NCBI GenBank assembly: GCA_965223795.1
Contig: CBDCXL010000002.1
Coordinates: 577,036-641,035, forward strand
DNA from: Nitrospinales bacterium
GTDB lineage: Bacteria; Nitrospinota; Nitrospinia; Nitrospinales; VA-1
DNA: 64,000 nucleotides
Direction of reading: 5' to 3'
The notes beneath the pieces are model-generated. The model worked only from the letters and a program-made list of their open reading frames with translations. It was not told the DNA's origin and searched no databases. Below are positions 15,910 to 52,080 of the stretch, piece after piece. The position numbers and the translations under genes were made by a program. Numbering within the stretch: the stretch's first letter is position 1; every line of letters begins with the position of its first letter.

Positions 15910-15965
15910 GTCACCCTGAGCTTGTCGAAGGGTGCAATGTCATGCTTCGACAGGCTCAGCATGAC
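15910..15965. repeat. palindromic dispersed repeat, family B (copy 1)
   Basis: GTCACCCTGAGCTTGTCGAAGGG ... CATGCTTCGACAGGCTCAGCATGAC. The same units recur at 39270-39396 and 50205-50269. Confidence 0.75.
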
Positions 15966-39269: not shown

Positions 39270-39396
39270 CGCGAAGCATGCACTTGGCGAAGGTCACCCT
39301 GAGCCCTTCGTCCTTCGACAGGCTCAGGACGACAGCTCAGGACAAGCAGGGTCGAAGGGTGCGCGGAGTCATGCTTCACAGTCTCAGTCTGACAGT
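39270..39396. repeat. palindromic dispersed repeat, family B (copy 2, compound)
   Basis: GGTCACCCTGAGCCCTTCGTCCTTCGACAGGCTCAGGAC ... GGTCGAAGGGTGCGCGGAGTCATGCTTCAC. It lies in the convergent intergenic region. Confidence 0.7.
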
Positions 39397-39471
39397 CACA
39401 CTTCCTGACACAAGGTTCCTTGACTGCTTTCAGTTGTTACGTGTCAATCGTGAGAGGAAGGGAGTGGCAAT

Positions 39472-47630: not shown

Positions 47631-48542
47631 TCAGGCGTGCTTTTTTTTGGCTTTGAACTTGGTTTCCCAATAGAGCAGGAACACGCTGGCGATGAAGATC
47701 GAGGAATAGGTGCCCACCAGGACGCCGATGAGCAGCGCGAAGGAGAAATCGTGGATGATCTCGCCGCCCAGGAAAAACAGCGCCATCACCACGAGCAGCG
47801 TGGTGCCGGAGGTCAGCAGGGTGCGGCTCAGGGTCTGGTTGACGCTCATGTTGATGAGGTCGAACAGCGACATCTTGCCCTTGCGGCGGTAGTTCTCGCG
47901 GATGCGGTCGAACACCACGATGGTGTCGTTCAAGGAATAACCGATGATGGTGAGAAACGCCGCCACGATGACGAGGGTGAACTCCTTGTCGGTGACGGAA
48001 AATGCGCCCATGGTGATCATCACGTCGTGGATCAGGGCGATGATGGCGGCGATGGCGTACTGGAACTCGAAACGCCAGGAAATGTAGATGACGATGCCGA
48101 TGACCGCGTACACGATGGAGAGCAGCGCTTTCTTTCTGAGGTCCTTGCCGACTTTCGGCCCGACCATCTCCACGCGCTCCACCGAGATGTCGTCGAGGTT
48201 GAAGTGGTCCTTGAGACTGTCCTTGACGTCGGCGCCGATCGCCTGCAGCTTTTCCTCGGAACTTTTCACGCGGATGAGGATGTCGTTTTTGGTACCGAAC
48301 TCCTGAATGGTGCTGTCGCCCAGGTTGATGGTCTTGAGGCCTTCGCGGATGTCGTCGATGGCGGGCGGGTTCTTGAACTTGAGCTGCACCAGCGTGCCGC
48401 CGGCGAAGTCGATCCCGTAGCGCAGTCCTCCGTGCATGATGATGGAGACGATGCCGAGCAGAATCAGGATTCCGGACAGCACCAGGGTGATGCGGATCTT
48501 GCCCATGAAGTCGAAATGGGTCTGGCGTTTGAATATTTCCAT
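47631..48542 (-). CDS. secF: protein translocase subunit SecF
   Basis: 303 aa. SecF pattern: GIDFAGGTLVQL and IGYSLNDTIVVFDRIREN. Confidence 0.92.
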   Translation of the reverse strand: MEIFKRQTHFDFMGKIRITLVLSGILILLGIVSIIMHGGLRYGIDFAGGTLVQLKFKNPPAIDDIREGLKTINLGDSTIQEFGTKNDILIRVKSSEEKLQAIGADVKDSLKDHFNLDDISVERVEMVGPKVGKDLRKKALLSIVYAVIGIVIYISWRFEFQYAIAAIIALIHDVMITMGAFSVTDKEFTLVIVAAFLTIIGYSLNDTIVVFDRIRENYRRKGKMSLFDLINMSVNQTLSRTLLTSGTTLLVVMALFFLGGEIIHDFSFALLIGVLVGTYSSIFIASVFLLYWETKFKAKKKHA

Positions 48543-48621: not shown

Positions 48622-50178
48622 TCAGATGCTGAGCCGGGCCAGTTTTTTCCGGCTCATGGCGCTGTCGAAGATGGTGCGGCTCACGAACACCGCGGTGAAC
48701 ATGCTGGCCGCGATGCCGATGCACAGCGTGATGGCGAATCCCTTGATCGGCCCGGTGCCGAACTGGAACAGCACCACCGCGGCGATGAAGGTGGTGATGT
48801 TGGCGTCGACGATGGTGCGGAACGCCTTGGAAAATCCGGAATCGATGGCGGCGCGGACGGTCTTGCCGTTTTTCAGCTCTTCGCGGATGCGCTCGAACAC
48901 CAGCACGTTGGCGTCGATCGCCATGCCCACGGTCAGGATGATGCCGGCGATGCCCGGCAGGGTGAGCGCCGCGCCGAAATAGGCCAGCGCGCCCACCAGC
49001 ATGACGATGTTGAGAAACAGCGCCGTCACGGCCACGAATCCGGACAGCTTGTAGTAGATGATGATGAACGCGATCACCAGAATGCCGCCGAGGATGATGG
49101 AGCTGATCCCCTTCTCGATGGAGTCCTTGCCGAGCGAGGGGCCGACGGTGCGGTTTTCCAGGATGACGACGGGCGCGGGCAGCGCGCCGGCGCGCAGGAC
49201 GATGGCCAGGTCGCGCGCCTCCTCGGTGGTGAAGCTGCCGGTGATCTGGGCGCGGCCGCCGGGAATCTCATCCTGGATGACCGGCGCGGAATAGACGTTG
49301 TCGTCCAGCACGATGGCCAGCCGCTTTTTCACGTTTTCGCGGGTGATGCGTTGAAACGTGCTGGCTCCCTGCCGGTTGAAGGTGATGGCGACGTAGGGCT
49401 CGTTGAACTGCTGGGAATCGAAGCGCACCTCGGCGTTGGTCAGGGTATCGCCGGTGAGGACCGTCCGCTTCTTGAGCAGGAAGGGCTCCTTGGTGGTCTC
49501 GCCGGTTTCCTTGTTCTCCTTGCGCTCATACAGGATCTCATCGCCGGGAGGCAGGCCGTTTTTCATCGCCATGTCCACGCTCATGGACTCATCCACCAGC
49601 TTGAATTCGAGGCGCGCGGTCTTGCCGATCAGGTTGATGGCGCGCTTGGGGTCCTTGATGCCGGGCAATTGCACTAATATGCGCCTTTCGCCCTGCACCT
49701 GAATGGTGGGTTCGGACACGCCGAACTGGTCCACGCGGTTGCGGATGGTCTCCAGCCCCTGGCTCACGGCGTTCTTTTCGATCTGCTCGATCTGCGAATC
49801 GGACAGCTTGAACCGAAGCTCCACGCCGTCGGCCAGCACTTCCTTGTTCTGGAGGAAGGGGTAGTTCTCCATCACTTTTTCCACTTCCGGCCGGTCGACG
49901 CTGTCCACGAGCACGATGCGGATTTTCTTGTTCTCCTGGTCGTCGAGGACCCGGTCGATCTCGATGTCCTCGTTCTCCAGATCGCGCTTGATGTCGTCGG
50001 CGAGCCGCTCCAGGCTGGCCTCGACGGCTTTTTCCACCTGGACTTCCAGCACCAGGTGCATGCCCCCCTGAAGGTCGAGCCCCAGGGCGATCTTCTCCTT
50101 GAGCGGATAGGCGAGAAACACCGCGCCGCAGATGGTGAGCAGGATCAGGGGAATTTTCCACTTGAGGTCTTTATACAT
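48622..50178 (-). CDS. secD: protein translocase subunit SecD
   Basis: 518 aa counted from MYKDLKWKIPLILLT. It has LGLDLQGGMHLVLEV and AIDANVLVFERIREE. The track start at 50226 would run into repeat B copy 3. Confidence 0.92.
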   Translation of the reverse strand: MYKDLKWKIPLILLTICGAVFLAYPLKEKIALGLDLQGGMHLVLEVQVEKAVEASLERLADDIKRDLENEDIEIDRVLDDQENKKIRIVLVDSVDRPEVEKVMENYPFLQNKEVLADGVELRFKLSDSQIEQIEKNAVSQGLETIRNRVDQFGVSEPTIQVQGERRILVQLPGIKDPKRAINLIGKTARLEFKLVDESMSVDMAMKNGLPPGDEILYERKENKETGETTKEPFLLKKRTVLTGDTLTNAEVRFDSQQFNEPYVAITFNRQGASTFQRITRENVKKRLAIVLDDNVYSAPVIQDEIPGGRAQITGSFTTEEARDLAIVLRAGALPAPVVILENRTVGPSLGKDSIEKGISSIILGGILVIAFIIIYYKLSGFVAVTALFLNIVMLVGALAYFGAALTLPGIAGIILTVGMAIDANVLVFERIREELKNGKTVRAAIDSGFSKAFRTIVDANITTFIAAVVLFQFGTGPIKGFAITLCIGIAASMFTAVFVSRTIFDSAMSRKKLARLSI

Positions 50179-50204
50179 AGAACGGTGCCGGTTGTGTGCG
50201 GCGA

Positions 50205-50269
50205 CATGCTTCGGCAGGCTCAGCATGACAGGATCTTTGCGCTTCCGTCATCCTGGGCCTGCCGAAGGG
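50205..50269. repeat. palindromic dispersed repeat, family B (copy 3)
   Basis: CATGCTTCGGCAGGCTCAGCATGAC ... GTCATCCTGGGCCTGCCGAAGGG, in the yajC-secD intergenic region. Confidence 0.75.
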
Positions 50270-50273
50270 TGGT

Positions 50274-50819
50274 TTATTTCATTTTTTCCAGCAGGAAATT
50301 GTAGGCTTTTTCCACTTTCTTGAATTCCGCTTCCGCTTTGGGATCGCCGTTGTTGCTGTCCGGACGCACCTCGGCGGCCTTTTTCTTGTAGGCCTTCTTC
50401 AACTGGTTCTTGCTGGTCAATTCCTCAAGATCCAGAACTTTGCAGTATTTTTTGATTTCATCGTCGTCCGGATCGATCTCGCCTTTTTCCGCACCGGCGG
50501 CCGATTCGCTCTTCATGGTGGCGATGGAAGCGCGGTTGATCTTGATGCGGACGTTGTCGGCGATCTGCAGCATCACCACGTCGTCCTTGATCTTTTTGAT
50601 GGTGCCGTGGATGCCGCTCATTGTGACGACGTTGTCCCCTTCCTTCAGGGCATCGAGCATCTTGCGCGTTTGTGCCTGCTTCTTCTGCTGCGGCCGGATC
50701 AGGATGAAGTAGAAAATCGCGAACATCATGATCATCGGCGGCAGCAGCGCCAGAAATCCGCCGCCTCCGCCTTCGCCGCCTTCGGGCGGGGGCGCCATGG
50801 CAAATGCTAGTTCAAGCAT
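50274..50819 (-). CDS. yajC: preprotein translocase subunit YajC with a C-terminal J-domain-like extension
   Basis: 181 aa. The YajC core is FAIFYFILIRPQQKK ... GDNVVTMSGIHGTIKKI. Residues ~121-179 align to DnaJ J-domain helices (KAYKKKAAEVRPDSNNGDPKAEAEFKKVEKAYNFL). A GAGGAAAG Shine-Dalgarno is present. Confidence 0.85.
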   Translation of the reverse strand: MLELAFAMAPPPEGGEGGGGGFLALLPPMIMMFAIFYFILIRPQQKKQAQTRKMLDALKEGDNVVTMSGIHGTIKKIKDDVVMLQIADNVRIKINRASIATMKSESAAGAEKGEIDPDDDEIKKYCKVLDLEELTSKNQLKKAYKKKAAEVRPDSNNGDPKAEAEFKKVEKAYNFLLEKMK

Positions 50820-50924
50820 GGTTTGCTTTCCTCAAATCTCACGATGATGGGTGGGATGCGGGTTCACCAGCGTGCCGCTGGCCCCAAATGCAACGCGCGA
50901 CGGGTTTGGAGGCGAAACGTTTTG

Positions 50925-51005
50925 TTTGCAGCCTCTGATTTGAACTTAATCCTATACCTCCACCACTCCGCGGAGGGCGGGTTTGCACACGCCGTGTAAA
51001 ACTTT
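50925..51005. repeat. dispersed intergenic repeat, family C, copy 2
   Basis: TTTGCAGCC ... CCACTCCGCGGAGGGCGGGTTTGCACACGCCGTGTAAAACT, matching 6795-6868. Confidence 0.75.
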
Positions 51006-51295
51006 CCGCTTCCGCCGTCCAGTTGCAGGGCCGCATCCGCGCACCCGGCCGTGGGAGTGGTCTGCCCGCGCGGGCCATGCTTTCGGGCCCGGACCCGGTG
51101 TGTTTCCGTCCTCGCACTCCGGGACGGATCCTCCCGCATTCGGAGATTTCTATTTTACGGGTTTACAAAAGGTTATCAAGCAGATTGCGCGGCCCGGCCT
51201 CACTGCGATCAAAGGCTCAGCTTCTATCAAATACCGGGGTCTTTGTCAACCCGGCGGGCCGAAGCCGCAACCGGTTTTCCGGCGCGGGCCGGGAC

Positions 51296-51826
51296 TCAGT
51301 AAAACCCCGGCATCTTCAGATTGGCCTCGTCCGTGAGCTTGCGGTAGAGGGCGTGGAACTCCTCGGTCGTCAGCTTGGGATCTTTCAGGGCTTCGAACTC
51401 CTCGCTGGTGATGGGAATCTGCGAATTTTCATCCCAGGCGGAAGTGGCGATGGCCGCATAATTCGGCGGATTGAGCGACTGCACGATCAGCATGTCCACC
51501 TTGTCGTTGTATTCGAGGGCGAGATCGATCACCAGCCGGGCGTCCTCGGCGCTCACGGCGCTGCCGATGGCGATGTTGGTCGGCGGGTGCCCGCCCCGGG
51601 GTTTCCAGTACTGCACCGTGTGCCTGAGCACCTTGATGGATTTGGACTTGAGAAAATCCCGCAGTTCCTTTTTGCGTTTTTTCTGCTTGTGGGCGAGCCA
51701 GATCTCGATGGTGCAGATGGTGGTTTTCGACTTGTCGCACGCGGCCGCCGCCTGCCGCGGCAGGTGAAACAGGCTCACGGAAACGACAAAGCACATCAAA
51801 ATCAGGTGGATAACAGGCTTTTTCAT
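51296..51826 (-). CDS. hypothetical secreted protein
   Basis: 176 aa counted from MKKPVIHLILMCFVVSVSLFHLPRQAAA, which looks like a signal peptide. A GAAGGGA Shine-Dalgarno is present. Family unknown. Confidence 0.5.
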   Translation of the reverse strand: MKKPVIHLILMCFVVSVSLFHLPRQAAAACDKSKTTICTIEIWLAHKQKKRKKELRDFLKSKSIKVLRHTVQYWKPRGGHPPTNIAIGSAVSAEDARLVIDLALEYNDKVDMLIVQSLNPPNYAAIATSAWDENSQIPITSEEFEALKDPKLTTEEFHALYRKLTDEANLKMPGFY

Positions 51827-52080
51827 ACAGGTCCCTTCATCGATCAAGGTTCAAACATGGATGCGGACAATCTTAACACAACCGCGCGCAGGCCGGACAG
51901 AGCCGGGAAACGGCCTCAAGAACCAAAACGCAGACTATTGATACTTATATACTTATTTTATTCCATCCGGGCCGGAGCGCCGTCTGCCCTCCCCTTCCCG
52001 CGAACGGGAGGGCTCAAGTTTGAGGTGTTTTTTCCGATAAAATGAATGGGATTTTTGTACGCATACCGGGAGTGAACCGA

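What the first reader, a model, noticed from the sequence alone, without database searches (positions are those of the whole stretch)
50274..50819. YajC fused to a J-domain-like module whose HPD motif reads RPD
The yajC ORF is 181 aa, about 70 aa longer than typical YajC proteins.

Residues ~22-105 form an ordinary YajC. An acidic linker (EKGEIDPDDDE) follows. Residues ~121-179 then align position for position with the DnaJ J-domain: 'KKYCKVLDLEELTSKNQLKKAYKKKAAEVRPDSNNGDPKAEAEFKKVEKAYNFLLE' against E. coli DnaJ '[55 protein letters not shown]'.

The HPD tripeptide needed for Hsp70 stimulation is RPD here. The codon is CGT at 50366-50364, one transition away from CAT.

The gene heads a yajC-secD-secF operon, and the YajC C-terminus is cytoplasmic. 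A J-like module tethered to the SecDF-YajC complex would therefore suggest a direct, possibly non-canonical, link between the translocon and DnaK. I am not aware of a described YajC-J fusion.
Basis: partly seen in the sequence, partly recalled or inferred. Interest (0 to 1): 0.72.

Follow-up and report, generated by a model that had tools for sequence, protein, structure and literature searches.

The report
One-off YajC fused to J-like domain
In one Nitrospina-family genome, a roughly 320-base insertion has joined a chaperone-recruiting "J-domain" with a mutated key motif to the small secretion-machinery protein YajC. No other sequenced organism shows this fusion, so it looks like a young evolutionary accident rather than an established link between secretion and chaperones.

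Summary
ORF 50274-50819(-) encodes 181 aa:
- a bona fide YajC (Pfam E=1.5e-30);
- an acidic linker;
- a significant J-domain (PF00226, 49 bits against a 27.8-bit cut-off; E. coli DnaJ J-domain E=4e-9; AF2 model rmsd 1.7-2.0 Å).

The HPD motif reads RPD (CGT at 50366-50364), and the gene heads yajC-secD-secF.

The fusion is a singleton. All relatives examined have a YajC of about 107 aa whose stop sits 3-5 nt from secD. That covers the nearest relative (about 85% nt identity), some 25 other Nitrospinaceae species and hundreds of metagenomic YajCs.

This genome has 326 nt in place of 12 nt. The insert holds the linker, the J-domain, a stop codon and a hairpin from a dispersed palindromic repeat family. 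Its GC3 is 0.66 against 0.84 in neighbouring genes.

No J-domain more than 53% identical turned up in any collection, and a chimeric YajC+J profile retrieved only this protein. The J-domain lacks helix IV, as other C-terminal J-domains do, and keeps every key DnaK-contact residue except the histidine.

Most likely this is a young captured 3' gene fragment that makes a membrane-anchored, stimulation-defective J-like tail. A working DnaK-translocon link is possible but has no conservation behind it.

The parts
50274..50819 (-). yajC-J fusion ORF, 181 aa plus stop codon
   Evidence: ORF list and sequence. Pfam YajC and DnaJ both score above their gathering thresholds.
50505..50819 (-). YajC portion, residues 1-105. 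It has an acidic N-terminus, a single TM segment (about residues 22-41, FLALLPPMIMMFAIFYFILI), a basic stretch (RPQQKKQAQTRK) and a beta-rich cytoplasmic domain.
   Evidence: PF02699 residues 26-100, E=1.5e-30; TIGR00739 residues 22-102. It is 77-93% identical to Nitrospinaceae YajC proteins. AF2 gives a TM helix plus four strands. The Foldseek top hit is B. subtilis YrbF (YajC), 9a7v.
50448..50504 (-). Linker, residues 106-124 (SAAGAEKGEIDPDDDEIKK). It is acidic, predicted disordered, and is the first part of the insertion.
   Evidence: pLDDT is below 50 for residues 98-114. No counterpart exists in relatives.
50277..50447 (-). J-like domain, residues 125-181, comprising helices I-III only. 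Helix IV is absent.
   Evidence: PF00226 E=5e-13, profile positions 2-56 of 63. PDB DnaJ J-domain E=4e-9. AF2 pLDDT is 81-89 with helices at 120-128, 137-151 and 160-180. Foldseek matches 1xbl at rmsd 1.7 Å over 53 columns and 5nro_B at 2.0 Å over 58.
50358..50366 (-). RPD tripeptide (R152-P153-D154) at the HPD position. The Arg codon is CGT (50366-50364).
   Evidence: Sequence and alignment to DnaJ H33-P34-D35. CGT makes up 9 of 145 Arg codons in neighbouring genes.
50179..50504 (-). Lineage-specific insertion: 326 nt here in place of 12 nt (AGCAAGTGATCG) in the nearest relative, a net gain of 314 nt. It contains the linker, J-domain, stop codon and a 95-nt non-coding tail.
   Evidence: Pairwise DNA alignment with L001 and junction sequences of L001/L002. 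The gene tables of L001-L005 show yajC (107 aa) 3-5 nt from secD. GC3 is 0.66 against a 0.84 background, p about 1e-4.
50209..50267 (.). Strong hairpin with 21-nt arms, a member of a dispersed palindromic repeat family. It lies between the yajC-J stop and the secD start.
   Evidence: Inverted repeat I1. RNA fold -44.7 kcal/mol, z=-5.2. Family copies lie at 15910-15965 and 39313-39333, with 0 matches expected by chance. No T-run follows it on the coding strand.
48622..50178 (-). secD. The start inferred from homologues is MYKDLKWKIP at 50178. The mechanical ORF reaches 50226, inside the hairpin.
   Evidence: Pfam SecD_1st, SecDF_P1_head and SecD_SecF_C. Start alignment with L001/L002.
47631..48542 (-). 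secF
   Evidence: Pfam Sec_GG and SecD_SecF_C.

Best explanation
This is a real but lineage-specific gene fusion.

After this Nitrospinaceae lineage split from its nearest sequenced relative (about 85% nt identity), 326 nt of foreign or ectopic DNA replaced the last two codons, the stop codon and the 3-nt spacer of yajC. The fragment looks like the 3' end of a gene for a protein with a C-terminal J-domain. It carries a linker, J helices I-III, its own stop codon and a downstream repeat-family hairpin. It landed in frame.

The product is an ordinary YajC: N-out, single TM, cytoplasmic beta domain, partner of SecDF. It now carries a flexible acidic linker of about 20 aa and a cytoplasmic J-like domain. 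Topologically this makes it a membrane-anchored class-C J-protein like DjlA.

The J-like domain keeps the basic helix II face (K141, K142, Y144, K145, K146), D154 (DnaJ D35), and F166 and K167 (DnaJ F47 and K48). It has Arg where the catalytic His belongs.

Inferred mechanism: the tail can still dock on DnaK-ATP at the NBD/linker interface, but it triggers ATP hydrolysis poorly or not at all. At most it holds DnaK transiently near the SecDF-YajC/SecYEG complex. Most probably it is a young, nearly neutral passenger that has already lost, or never had, co-chaperone activity in this context.

Shown: the fusion, the domain identities, the insertion, its uniqueness and the atypical codon usage. Inferred: the donor type, the topology of the tail, DnaK docking without stimulation, and near-neutrality.
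For: Domain identities:
- YajC and J-domain are both significant.
- The J part is confidently folded and superposes on DnaJ J-domains.

Insertion:
- Its boundaries come from alignment with L001.
- All relatives have yajC of about 107 aa abutting secD (24 Nitrospinaceae loci matching only residues 1 to about 105).

Uniqueness:
- Among 5.8 billion protein clusters, only P0001 (identical, on one 3.25-Mb contig) carries both Pfam domains. This held for the native query and for a chimeric YajC+J profile (276 bits; the next hit is 152 bits and YajC-only).
- An exhaustive phmmer search of the tail against 1.84 billion representatives gave nothing above 51% identity. The ten hits with a non-N-terminal J-domain that I scanned with Pfam contained no YajC.
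- Nothing above 53% identity appeared in metagenome or viral contigs. There were no plasmid or phage matches.

Foreign signature:
- GC3 is 0.66 against 0.84, p about 1e-4. The Arg codon CGT is rare (6% of Arg codons) and one transition from CAT.

Donor type:
- C-terminal J-domains that end right after helix III occur naturally, with HPD (P0194, P0212).
- The non-coding tail is a copy of a repeat family found elsewhere in the window.

H-to-R consequence:
- H33 hydrogen-bonds the DnaK linker at L391.
- Substitutions of the HPD histidine and aspartate abolished stimulation in every system tested (PMC8215388).
- In simulation, H33A keeps binding but blocks the activating transition (PMC13012618).
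- 165 of the 178 aligned J segments in the 150 nearest representatives have HPD.
Against: - Apart from the His, every core and DnaK-contact residue checked is intact and the reading frame is open. That is not what long neutral decay predicts, so the tail may be under selection or simply very young.
- Arg could in principle donate the hydrogen bond that His gives to the L391 carbonyl, so loss of stimulation is not proven.
- No second genome of this species is available, so neither selection nor fixation can be assessed.
- The donor was not found.
- The source genome was not retrievable here, so an intragenomic source for the fragment could not be tested.
Confidence: 0.6

Rival explanations
1. 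Functional translocon-tethered co-chaperone. The tail is a working, possibly tuned, J-domain that recruits DnaK to the cytoplasmic face of SecDF-YajC/SecYEG. There DnaK would hand over or rescue export substrates or stalled translocons. Arg152 would either substitute for His or deliberately slow hydrolysis.
For: - The tail sits on the cytoplasmic side, where DnaK is (positive-inside rule, read from the sequence).
- The flexible acidic linker has low pLDDT.
- The basic helix II face, D154 and F166 are conserved.
- The open reading frame is intact.
- Membrane-anchored J-proteins exist in bacteria (DjlA, DjlB, DjlC), and DnaK assists some exported proteins (PMC8215388).
Against: - It is a singleton, absent from all relatives and from every collection searched.
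- Its codon usage is atypical.
- The histidine, whose substitution abolished stimulation in every system tested, is replaced.
- The Pfam score (49 bits) is lower than for other helix-IV-less C-terminal J-domains (68-74 bits).
- The insertion also disrupts the tight yajC-secD junction that all relatives keep.
Confidence: 0.15
2. Dead relic or pseudo-domain. The tail is translated only because the insert happened to land in frame. It neither binds nor stimulates DnaK. Any consequence of the insertion is at the operon level: a 96-nt spacer with a -45 kcal/mol hairpin now separates yajC from secD.
For: - Singleton status, foreign codon usage and RPD.
- Helix IV is missing.
- A strong repeat-family hairpin sits right upstream of the secD start, where relatives have 3-5 nt.
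- Another RPD in the nearest J set is the degenerate second domain of a tandem J-protein (P0153).
Against: The core and interface residues are otherwise intact, and the AF2 single-sequence model is confident. Lack of helix IV is normal for some HPD-bearing C-terminal J-domains.
Confidence: 0.2
3. Assembly or sequencing artefact. Either a mis-assembly inserted the segment, or a base-calling error removed a stop or frameshift, or turned CAT into CGT.
For: Only one contig carries the sequence. Read data cannot be inspected with these tools.
Against: - The insert is flanked on both sides, within about 330 nt, by collinear yajC and secD sequence. An artefact would need two precise chimeric joins.
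- The contig is 3.25 Mb, which looks like a near-complete chromosome.
- The tail has no possible start codon of its own upstream of helix I, so it is not a separate ORF merged by one error (sequence).
- The J-domain is a clean HMM match with no frame disruption.
Confidence: 0.05

Closest known systems
DjlA, and other small membrane-anchored class-C (type III) J-domain proteins of bacteria
   Same: The layout matches: an N-terminal single TM anchor, a cytoplasmic middle part and a C-terminal J-domain facing DnaK. The J-domain also ends shortly after helix III without the canonical helix IV motif. This is seen here in the HPD-bearing C-terminal J-proteins P0194 and P0212; for E. coli DjlA I recall it from memory.
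   Different: There is no family-level sequence relationship: the NCBIfam DjlA model gives 19.9 bits against a cut-off of 162. The anchor here is a complete YajC, a Sec holo-translocon subunit, encoded at the head of secDF. The motif is RPD, not HPD.
Canonical YajC (PF02699 / TIGR00739), partner of SecDF
   Same: Residues 1-105 form a full-length YajC, 77-93% identical to Nitrospinaceae orthologues, in the conserved yajC-secD-secF position.
   Different: A 76-residue C-terminal addition is absent from every other YajC retrieved. Some relatives carry only short Lys/Glu-rich tails and reach at most 141 aa. The yajC stop to secD start distance is 96 nt instead of 3-5 nt.
Translocon-associated J and J-like proteins of eukaryotes: Sec63/ERdj at Sec61, and Pam18(Tim14)-Pam16(Tim16) at TIM23
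   Same: The principle is the same: a J-type domain is tethered to a protein-conducting channel complex to localise an Hsp70. Pam16 is a precedent for a J-like domain without HPD that binds but does not stimulate. This rests on established knowledge; 2guz (Tim14-Tim16) appears only as a weak fold match.
   Different: Those J-domains sit on the trans side, where Hsp70 pulls the chain in. Here the domain is on the cis (cytoplasmic) side. Those systems are universally conserved in their lineages, whereas this one is a singleton. There is no specific sequence relationship.
DnaJ J-domain (E. coli DnaJ residues 1-70; PDB 1xbl, 5nro)
   Same: The alignment to DnaJ residues 4-60 is ungapped and about 40% identical. 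Y25, K26, R27 (as Lys), P34, D35, F47, K48, A53, Y54 and L57 are conserved. The helix II-loop-helix III hairpin is the same.
   Different: H33 is Arg. Helix IV (the QKRAAYDQYG region) is absent. The domain is C-terminal and followed by a stop, rather than N-terminal and followed by a G/F region.

Membership tests
YajC (PF02699 / TIGR00739) | Family HMM match above the curated cut-off | tested here: met
   PF02699 scores 105.3 bits against 28.2. TIGR00739 scores 98.8 bits against 44.2.
YajC (PF02699 / TIGR00739) | Single N-terminal TM helix followed by a basic stretch and a small beta-rich cytoplasmic domain | tested here: met
   The hydrophobic stretch at residues 22-41 is followed by RPQQKKQAQTRK. 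AF2 gives a helix at 26-59 and four strands at 64-95. The Foldseek top hit is YrbF/YajC, 9a7v.
YajC (PF02699 / TIGR00739) | Gene immediately upstream of secD-secF | tested here: met
   secD and secF are confirmed by Pfam on the same strand. Relatives share the synteny.
J-domain (PF00226) | Family HMM match above the gathering score | tested here: met
   49.3 bits (52.1 when scanned alone) against 27.8, E=5e-13. PDB DnaJ J-domain E=4e-9.
J-domain (PF00226) | Helix II-loop-helix III antiparallel hairpin fold | tested here: met
   AF2 pLDDT is 81-89 for residues 120-180. Superposition gives rmsd 1.7 Å on 1xbl and 2.0 Å on 5nro_B, with TM (target) 0.62-0.75.
J-domain (PF00226) | Invariant His-Pro-Asp tripeptide in the helix II/III loop | tested here: not met
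   The tripeptide is R152-P153-D154. HPD occurs in 165 of the 178 aligned J segments in the 150 nearest representatives.
J-domain (PF00226) | Four-helix architecture including helix IV | tested here: not met
   The protein ends at DnaJ position 62, and the Pfam match stops at profile position 56 of 63. Some HPD-bearing C-terminal J-domains share this truncation.
J-domain (PF00226) | Stimulation of the partner Hsp70 ATPase | not testable with these tools
   This needs biochemistry. The literature predicts loss when the His is replaced (PMC8215388; PMC13012618).
DjlA (NCBIfam NF006948) | Equivalog HMM above cut-off | tested here: not met
   19.9 bits against a cut-off of 162, and only residues 108-154 match.
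DnaJ / CbpA (class A/B J-proteins) | N-terminal J-domain followed by a G/F region and C-terminal substrate-binding domains | tested here: not met
   The whole-protein models TIGR02349 (42 bits against 377) and PRK10266 (19.9 against 403) match the J part only. A stop codon follows helix III.
Translocon-tethered J systems (Sec63, Pam18/Pam16) | J or J-like domain on the trans side of the channel, conserved across the lineage | tested here: not met
   The tail is predicted cytoplasmic, which is the cis side. It is absent from all relatives.

The most novel reading that the evidence does not exclude
The RPD tail is a selected, functional J-like tether. It would dock DnaK-ATP at the cytoplasmic face of the SecDF-YajC/SecYEG holo-translocon, with Arg152 either substituting for His or deliberately uncoupling binding from ATP hydrolysis in the manner of Pam16. 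That would make it the first bacterial example of an Hsp70 recruiter built into a Sec translocon subunit, caught at or near its evolutionary birth.
Probability: 0.12. Interest if true: 0.7.

Novelty: new variant of a known kind. Interest (0 to 1): 0.35.

Why it matters
If the tail were active, it would physically couple DnaK to the bacterial Sec holo-translocon. Such coupling is known only from eukaryotic organelles (Sec63-BiP, Pam18/Pam16-mtHsp70). It would also give a natural RPD variant for separating Hsp70 binding from ATPase stimulation.

As the evidence stands, its main value is as a datable example of how class-C J-proteins arise. A 3' gene fragment with a C-terminal J-domain, its stop codon and its downstream repeat was dropped in frame onto a membrane protein. 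The review PMC8215388 notes that J-domains seem in some cases to be late evolutionary add-ons, and this looks like such an event in progress.

It does not change our understanding of YajC or of Nitrospinota secretion in general, because no relative shares it.

Tried and rejected
1. Word-index search with the tail alone found no candidates at all, not even the protein itself, and cost one of the three searches. The exhaustive phmmer search replaced it.

2. Apparent longer matches in the genome scan were not fusions.
   - L035 (residues 28-158) is a 119-aa YajC with a charged tail.
   - L050 (residues 93-181) and the many Geothrix/Holophagaceae hits are canonical dnaJ next to dnaK.

3. Ten J-proteins with a non-N-terminal J-domain were scanned for YajC. 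None had it. One (P0192) is a GrpE+J architecture.

4. The donor hunt failed.
   - P0131, a J+HEAT protein beside a non-canonical Hsp70, is 49% identical and shares the 'YC' and 'EKMK' quirks. That is too distant to call it the donor.
   - Plasmid DNA and phage protein searches found nothing.
   - There is no second copy of the J-domain in the window.

5. An independent start codon for the tail was rejected. There is no in-frame ATG, GTG or TTG between codon 105 and helix I.

6. The hairpin is not an intrinsic terminator on the coding strand, because no T-run follows it. It matches no known RNA family; the only hits are chance-level miRNA matches.

7. No direct repeats suggesting a target-site duplication flank the insert.

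8. The source genome could not be retrieved. I could therefore not examine its own dnaK or dnaJ, or other J-protein genes that might be the fragment's source.

9. Literature searches found nothing on a YajC-J fusion, on RPD variants, or on His-to-Arg changes in HPD.

Full report

Yes.

- Pfam places YajC (PF02699) on residues 26-100 at E=1.5e-30. It places the DnaJ J-domain (PF00226) on residues 125-179 at E=5e-13. The J-domain scores 49.3 bits against a gathering score of 27.8, or 52 bits when the tail is scanned alone.
- NCBIfam agrees. TIGR00739 (yajC) scores 98.8 bits against 44.2. The whole-protein DnaJ, CbpA and DjlA models match only through the J part and fall far below their cut-offs.
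- The best solved-structure relatives of the tail are E. coli DnaJ J-domains (1bqz, 1xbl, 5nro; E=4e-9 to 1e-8). The alignment is ungapped against DnaJ residues 4-60.
- A single-sequence AlphaFold2 model is poor for the YajC half. For residues 120-180 it is confident (block pLDDT 81-89), with helices at 120-128, 137-151 and 160-180.
- That part of the model superposes on 1xbl at 1.7 Å over 53 columns and on 5nro chain B at 2.0 Å over 58 columns. The YajC half hits B. subtilis YrbF.
- The tripeptide at the HPD position is R152-P153-D154. Codon 152 is CGT at 50366-50364.
- secD (true start 50178 by homology) and secF follow on the same strand.

One detail was missed. The protein ends at the position of DnaJ residue 62 (Pfam profile positions 2-56 of 63), so J helix IV is absent.

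**2. Where the tail comes from**

The closest YajC proteins in a 5.8-billion-cluster collection are 86-93% identical over residues 1 to about 105. They are about 107 aa long and carry no J-domain. Only P0001, which is identical to the query and sits on a single 3.25-Mb contig, has both Pfam domains.

In the nearest relative (L001), yajC ends ...MKSESK* and secD starts 3 nt later. In L002-L005 the gap is 5 nt. The flanks of L001 are 82-85% identical at nucleotide level, which points to a different species.

DNA alignment shows that the window has 326 nt (50179-50504) where L001 has 12 nt. The insert contains:
- the acidic linker;
- the J-domain;
- a stop codon;
- a 95-nt non-coding tail.

The core of that tail is a 21-nt-arm hairpin at 50209-50267 (-44.7 kcal/mol, z=-5.2). 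The hairpin belongs to a dispersed palindromic repeat family with other copies at 15910-15965 and 39313-39333 (0 matches expected by chance). One copy also occurs in L001, at a different place.

The coding part of the insert has GC3 of 0.66, against 0.84 for seven neighbouring genes (binomial p about 1e-4). CGT is a rare Arg codon there, at 9 of 145.

No in-frame start codon exists between codon 105 and helix I. The tail can therefore only be made as a fusion.

**3. Is the fusion found anywhere else?**

I found no second example.

- A scan of one genome per GTDB species returned 24 Nitrospinaceae loci, all matching only residues 1 to about 105. It returned no locus with both parts. Two apparently longer matches were a plain YajC with a charged tail and a canonical dnaK-dnaJ locus.
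- An exhaustive phmmer search of the tail against 1.84 billion representatives gave 2318 J-domain hits, none above 51% identity. I scanned the ten hits with a non-N-terminal J-domain with Pfam, and none contained YajC.
- Scans of JGI metagenome contigs and IMG/VR found nothing above 53% identity. Plasmid DNA and phage protein searches found nothing.
- I built a probe profile from synthetic chimeras of diverse YajC and J-domain sequences (alignment A2) and ran it against the 5.8 billion clusters. It retrieved P0001 at 276 bits. The next hit was a YajC-only protein at 152 bits.
- A caveat applies to that last search. Only the 8000 candidates sharing the most words were scored, so very divergent fusions could be missed.
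- Full-text searches found no paper describing a YajC-J fusion.

**4. What kind of J-domain is it?**

Mapped onto DnaJ (our residue number minus 119), the following are conserved:
- Y6;
- L10;
- R22 and K23 (as Lys);
- A24, Y25 and K26;
- R27 (as Lys);
- A29;
- P34 and D35;
- F47 and K48;
- I50 (as Val);
- A53, Y54 and L57.

The only key position that deviates is H33, which is Arg.

Lack of helix IV is not in itself a sign of decay. Among the nearest relatives, P0194 (136 aa, with a TM-like segment) and P0212 (163 aa) have HPD-bearing C-terminal J-domains that also stop right after helix III.

This pattern fits a donor gene with a C-terminal J-domain, whose 3' end was captured together with its stop codon and downstream repeat. 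That is an inference.

The Pfam score here (49 bits) is lower than for those two proteins (68-74 bits). Of the 178 aligned J segments in the 150 nearest representatives, 165 have HPD. One has RPD: the degenerate second domain of a tandem J-protein, P0153.

**5. Likely mechanism**

The YajC part should behave as in any bacterium. The acidic N-terminus faces out, there is one TM helix, and the basic stretch and beta domain lie in the cytoplasm. This follows from the positive-inside rule applied to the sequence and from established knowledge of YajC. The tail is therefore cytoplasmic, on a disordered linker of about 20 residues.

The literature describes the HPD contacts:
- H33 hydrogen-bonds the backbone carbonyl of DnaK linker residue L391.
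- D35 binds R167 and Q378.
- Substitutions of the His and Asp abolished ATPase stimulation in every system tested (PMC8215388).
- Simulations indicate that H33A still binds but cannot drive the activating transition (PMC13012618).

With the basic helix II face and the Asp intact, I infer that the tail can dock on DnaK-ATP but stimulates it poorly. Arg might partly replace the His hydrogen bond, but this is untested.

Taking into account the singleton status, the foreign codon usage and the collateral disruption of the tight yajC-secD junction, my probabilities are:
- 0.6 for a young, nearly neutral fusion whose tail is at most a weak, non-stimulating DnaK tether;
- 0.2 for a completely inert relic;
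- 0.15 for a truly functional translocon-DnaK link;
- 0.05 for an artefact.

**6. Comparison with known systems**

In layout it resembles DjlA-type membrane-anchored class-C J-proteins. In concept it resembles the translocon-tethered J and J-like proteins of eukaryotes (Sec63; Pam18/Pam16, where Pam16 lacks HPD).

It is not a member of the DjlA family (19.9 bits against a cut-off of 162). It fails two defining J-domain features, HPD and helix IV, while meeting the HMM and fold criteria. Its J-like domain also sits on the cis side of the membrane, unlike Sec63 and Pam18.

It is a genuine member of the YajC family. The YajC+J architecture appears to be new, but it is one more instance of the well-known modular spread of J-domains. 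I therefore class it as a new variant of a known kind.

**7. Verdict**

Interest is moderate to low (0.35). It is a neat, well-delimited example of domain capture and a cheap hypothesis to test biochemically. It is not evidence for a general translocon-DnaK link.

Noticed in passing
window 15910-15965, 39290-39400, 50209-50267; L001 2642-2656: A dispersed palindromic repeat family with core GTCAYSCTGAGCYTGYCGAAG forms long hairpins in intergenic DNA. A 21-mer search allowing up to 3 mismatches gave five matches at three sites in the window, where none is expected by chance. It has no Rfam family and looks REP- or MITE-like. One copy forms the 3' end of the yajC insertion.
   Followed up: partly
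window 50178-50276: The mechanical secD ORF starts at 50226, inside the hairpin. Homologues start at MYKDLKWKIP (50178). The yajC stop to secD start distance is 96 nt here against 3-5 nt in all relatives. Any translational coupling of yajC and secD is therefore probably lost in this genome.
   Followed up: partly
L179 118-4365: P0131 is among the nearest relatives of the tail by identity (49%). It is a J-domain plus HEAT-repeat protein encoded directly downstream of a 573-aa non-canonical Hsp70 and upstream of a pilM/pilN-like gene. This may be a specialised Hsp70/J pair.
   Followed up: no
proteins P0192, P0121-P0125, P0129, P0153 (one search hits): The J-domain hits include some odd architectures. 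P0192 combines a GrpE C-terminal domain with a J-domain in one 233-aa protein. Several proteins carry 2-6 tandem J-domains. P0121, P0122, P0124 and P0129 contain internally repeated, near-identical J-domain segments, which could be assembly repeats. In P0125 and P0153 the second J-domain has a degenerate motif instead of HPD.
   Followed up: no
window 51296-51847 (-) and 50820-51295: A 183-aa protein with a hydrophobic, signal-peptide-like N-terminus and no Pfam match lies upstream of yajC. Relatives have an unannotated gene of 175-187 aa at the same position. A 476-nt intergenic region separates it from yajC. That region contains one sigma-70-like site (51179-51152) and no Rfam hit in the part scanned, up to 51200.
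   Followed up: no
source genome: The fusion protein is indexed in the protein collection as one member on one 3.25-Mb contig, from NCBI and ENA. Its encoding contig was not on record in the contig look-up, and no 100% match appeared in the species-representative genome scan. The rest of the genome could therefore not be examined.
   Followed up: partly
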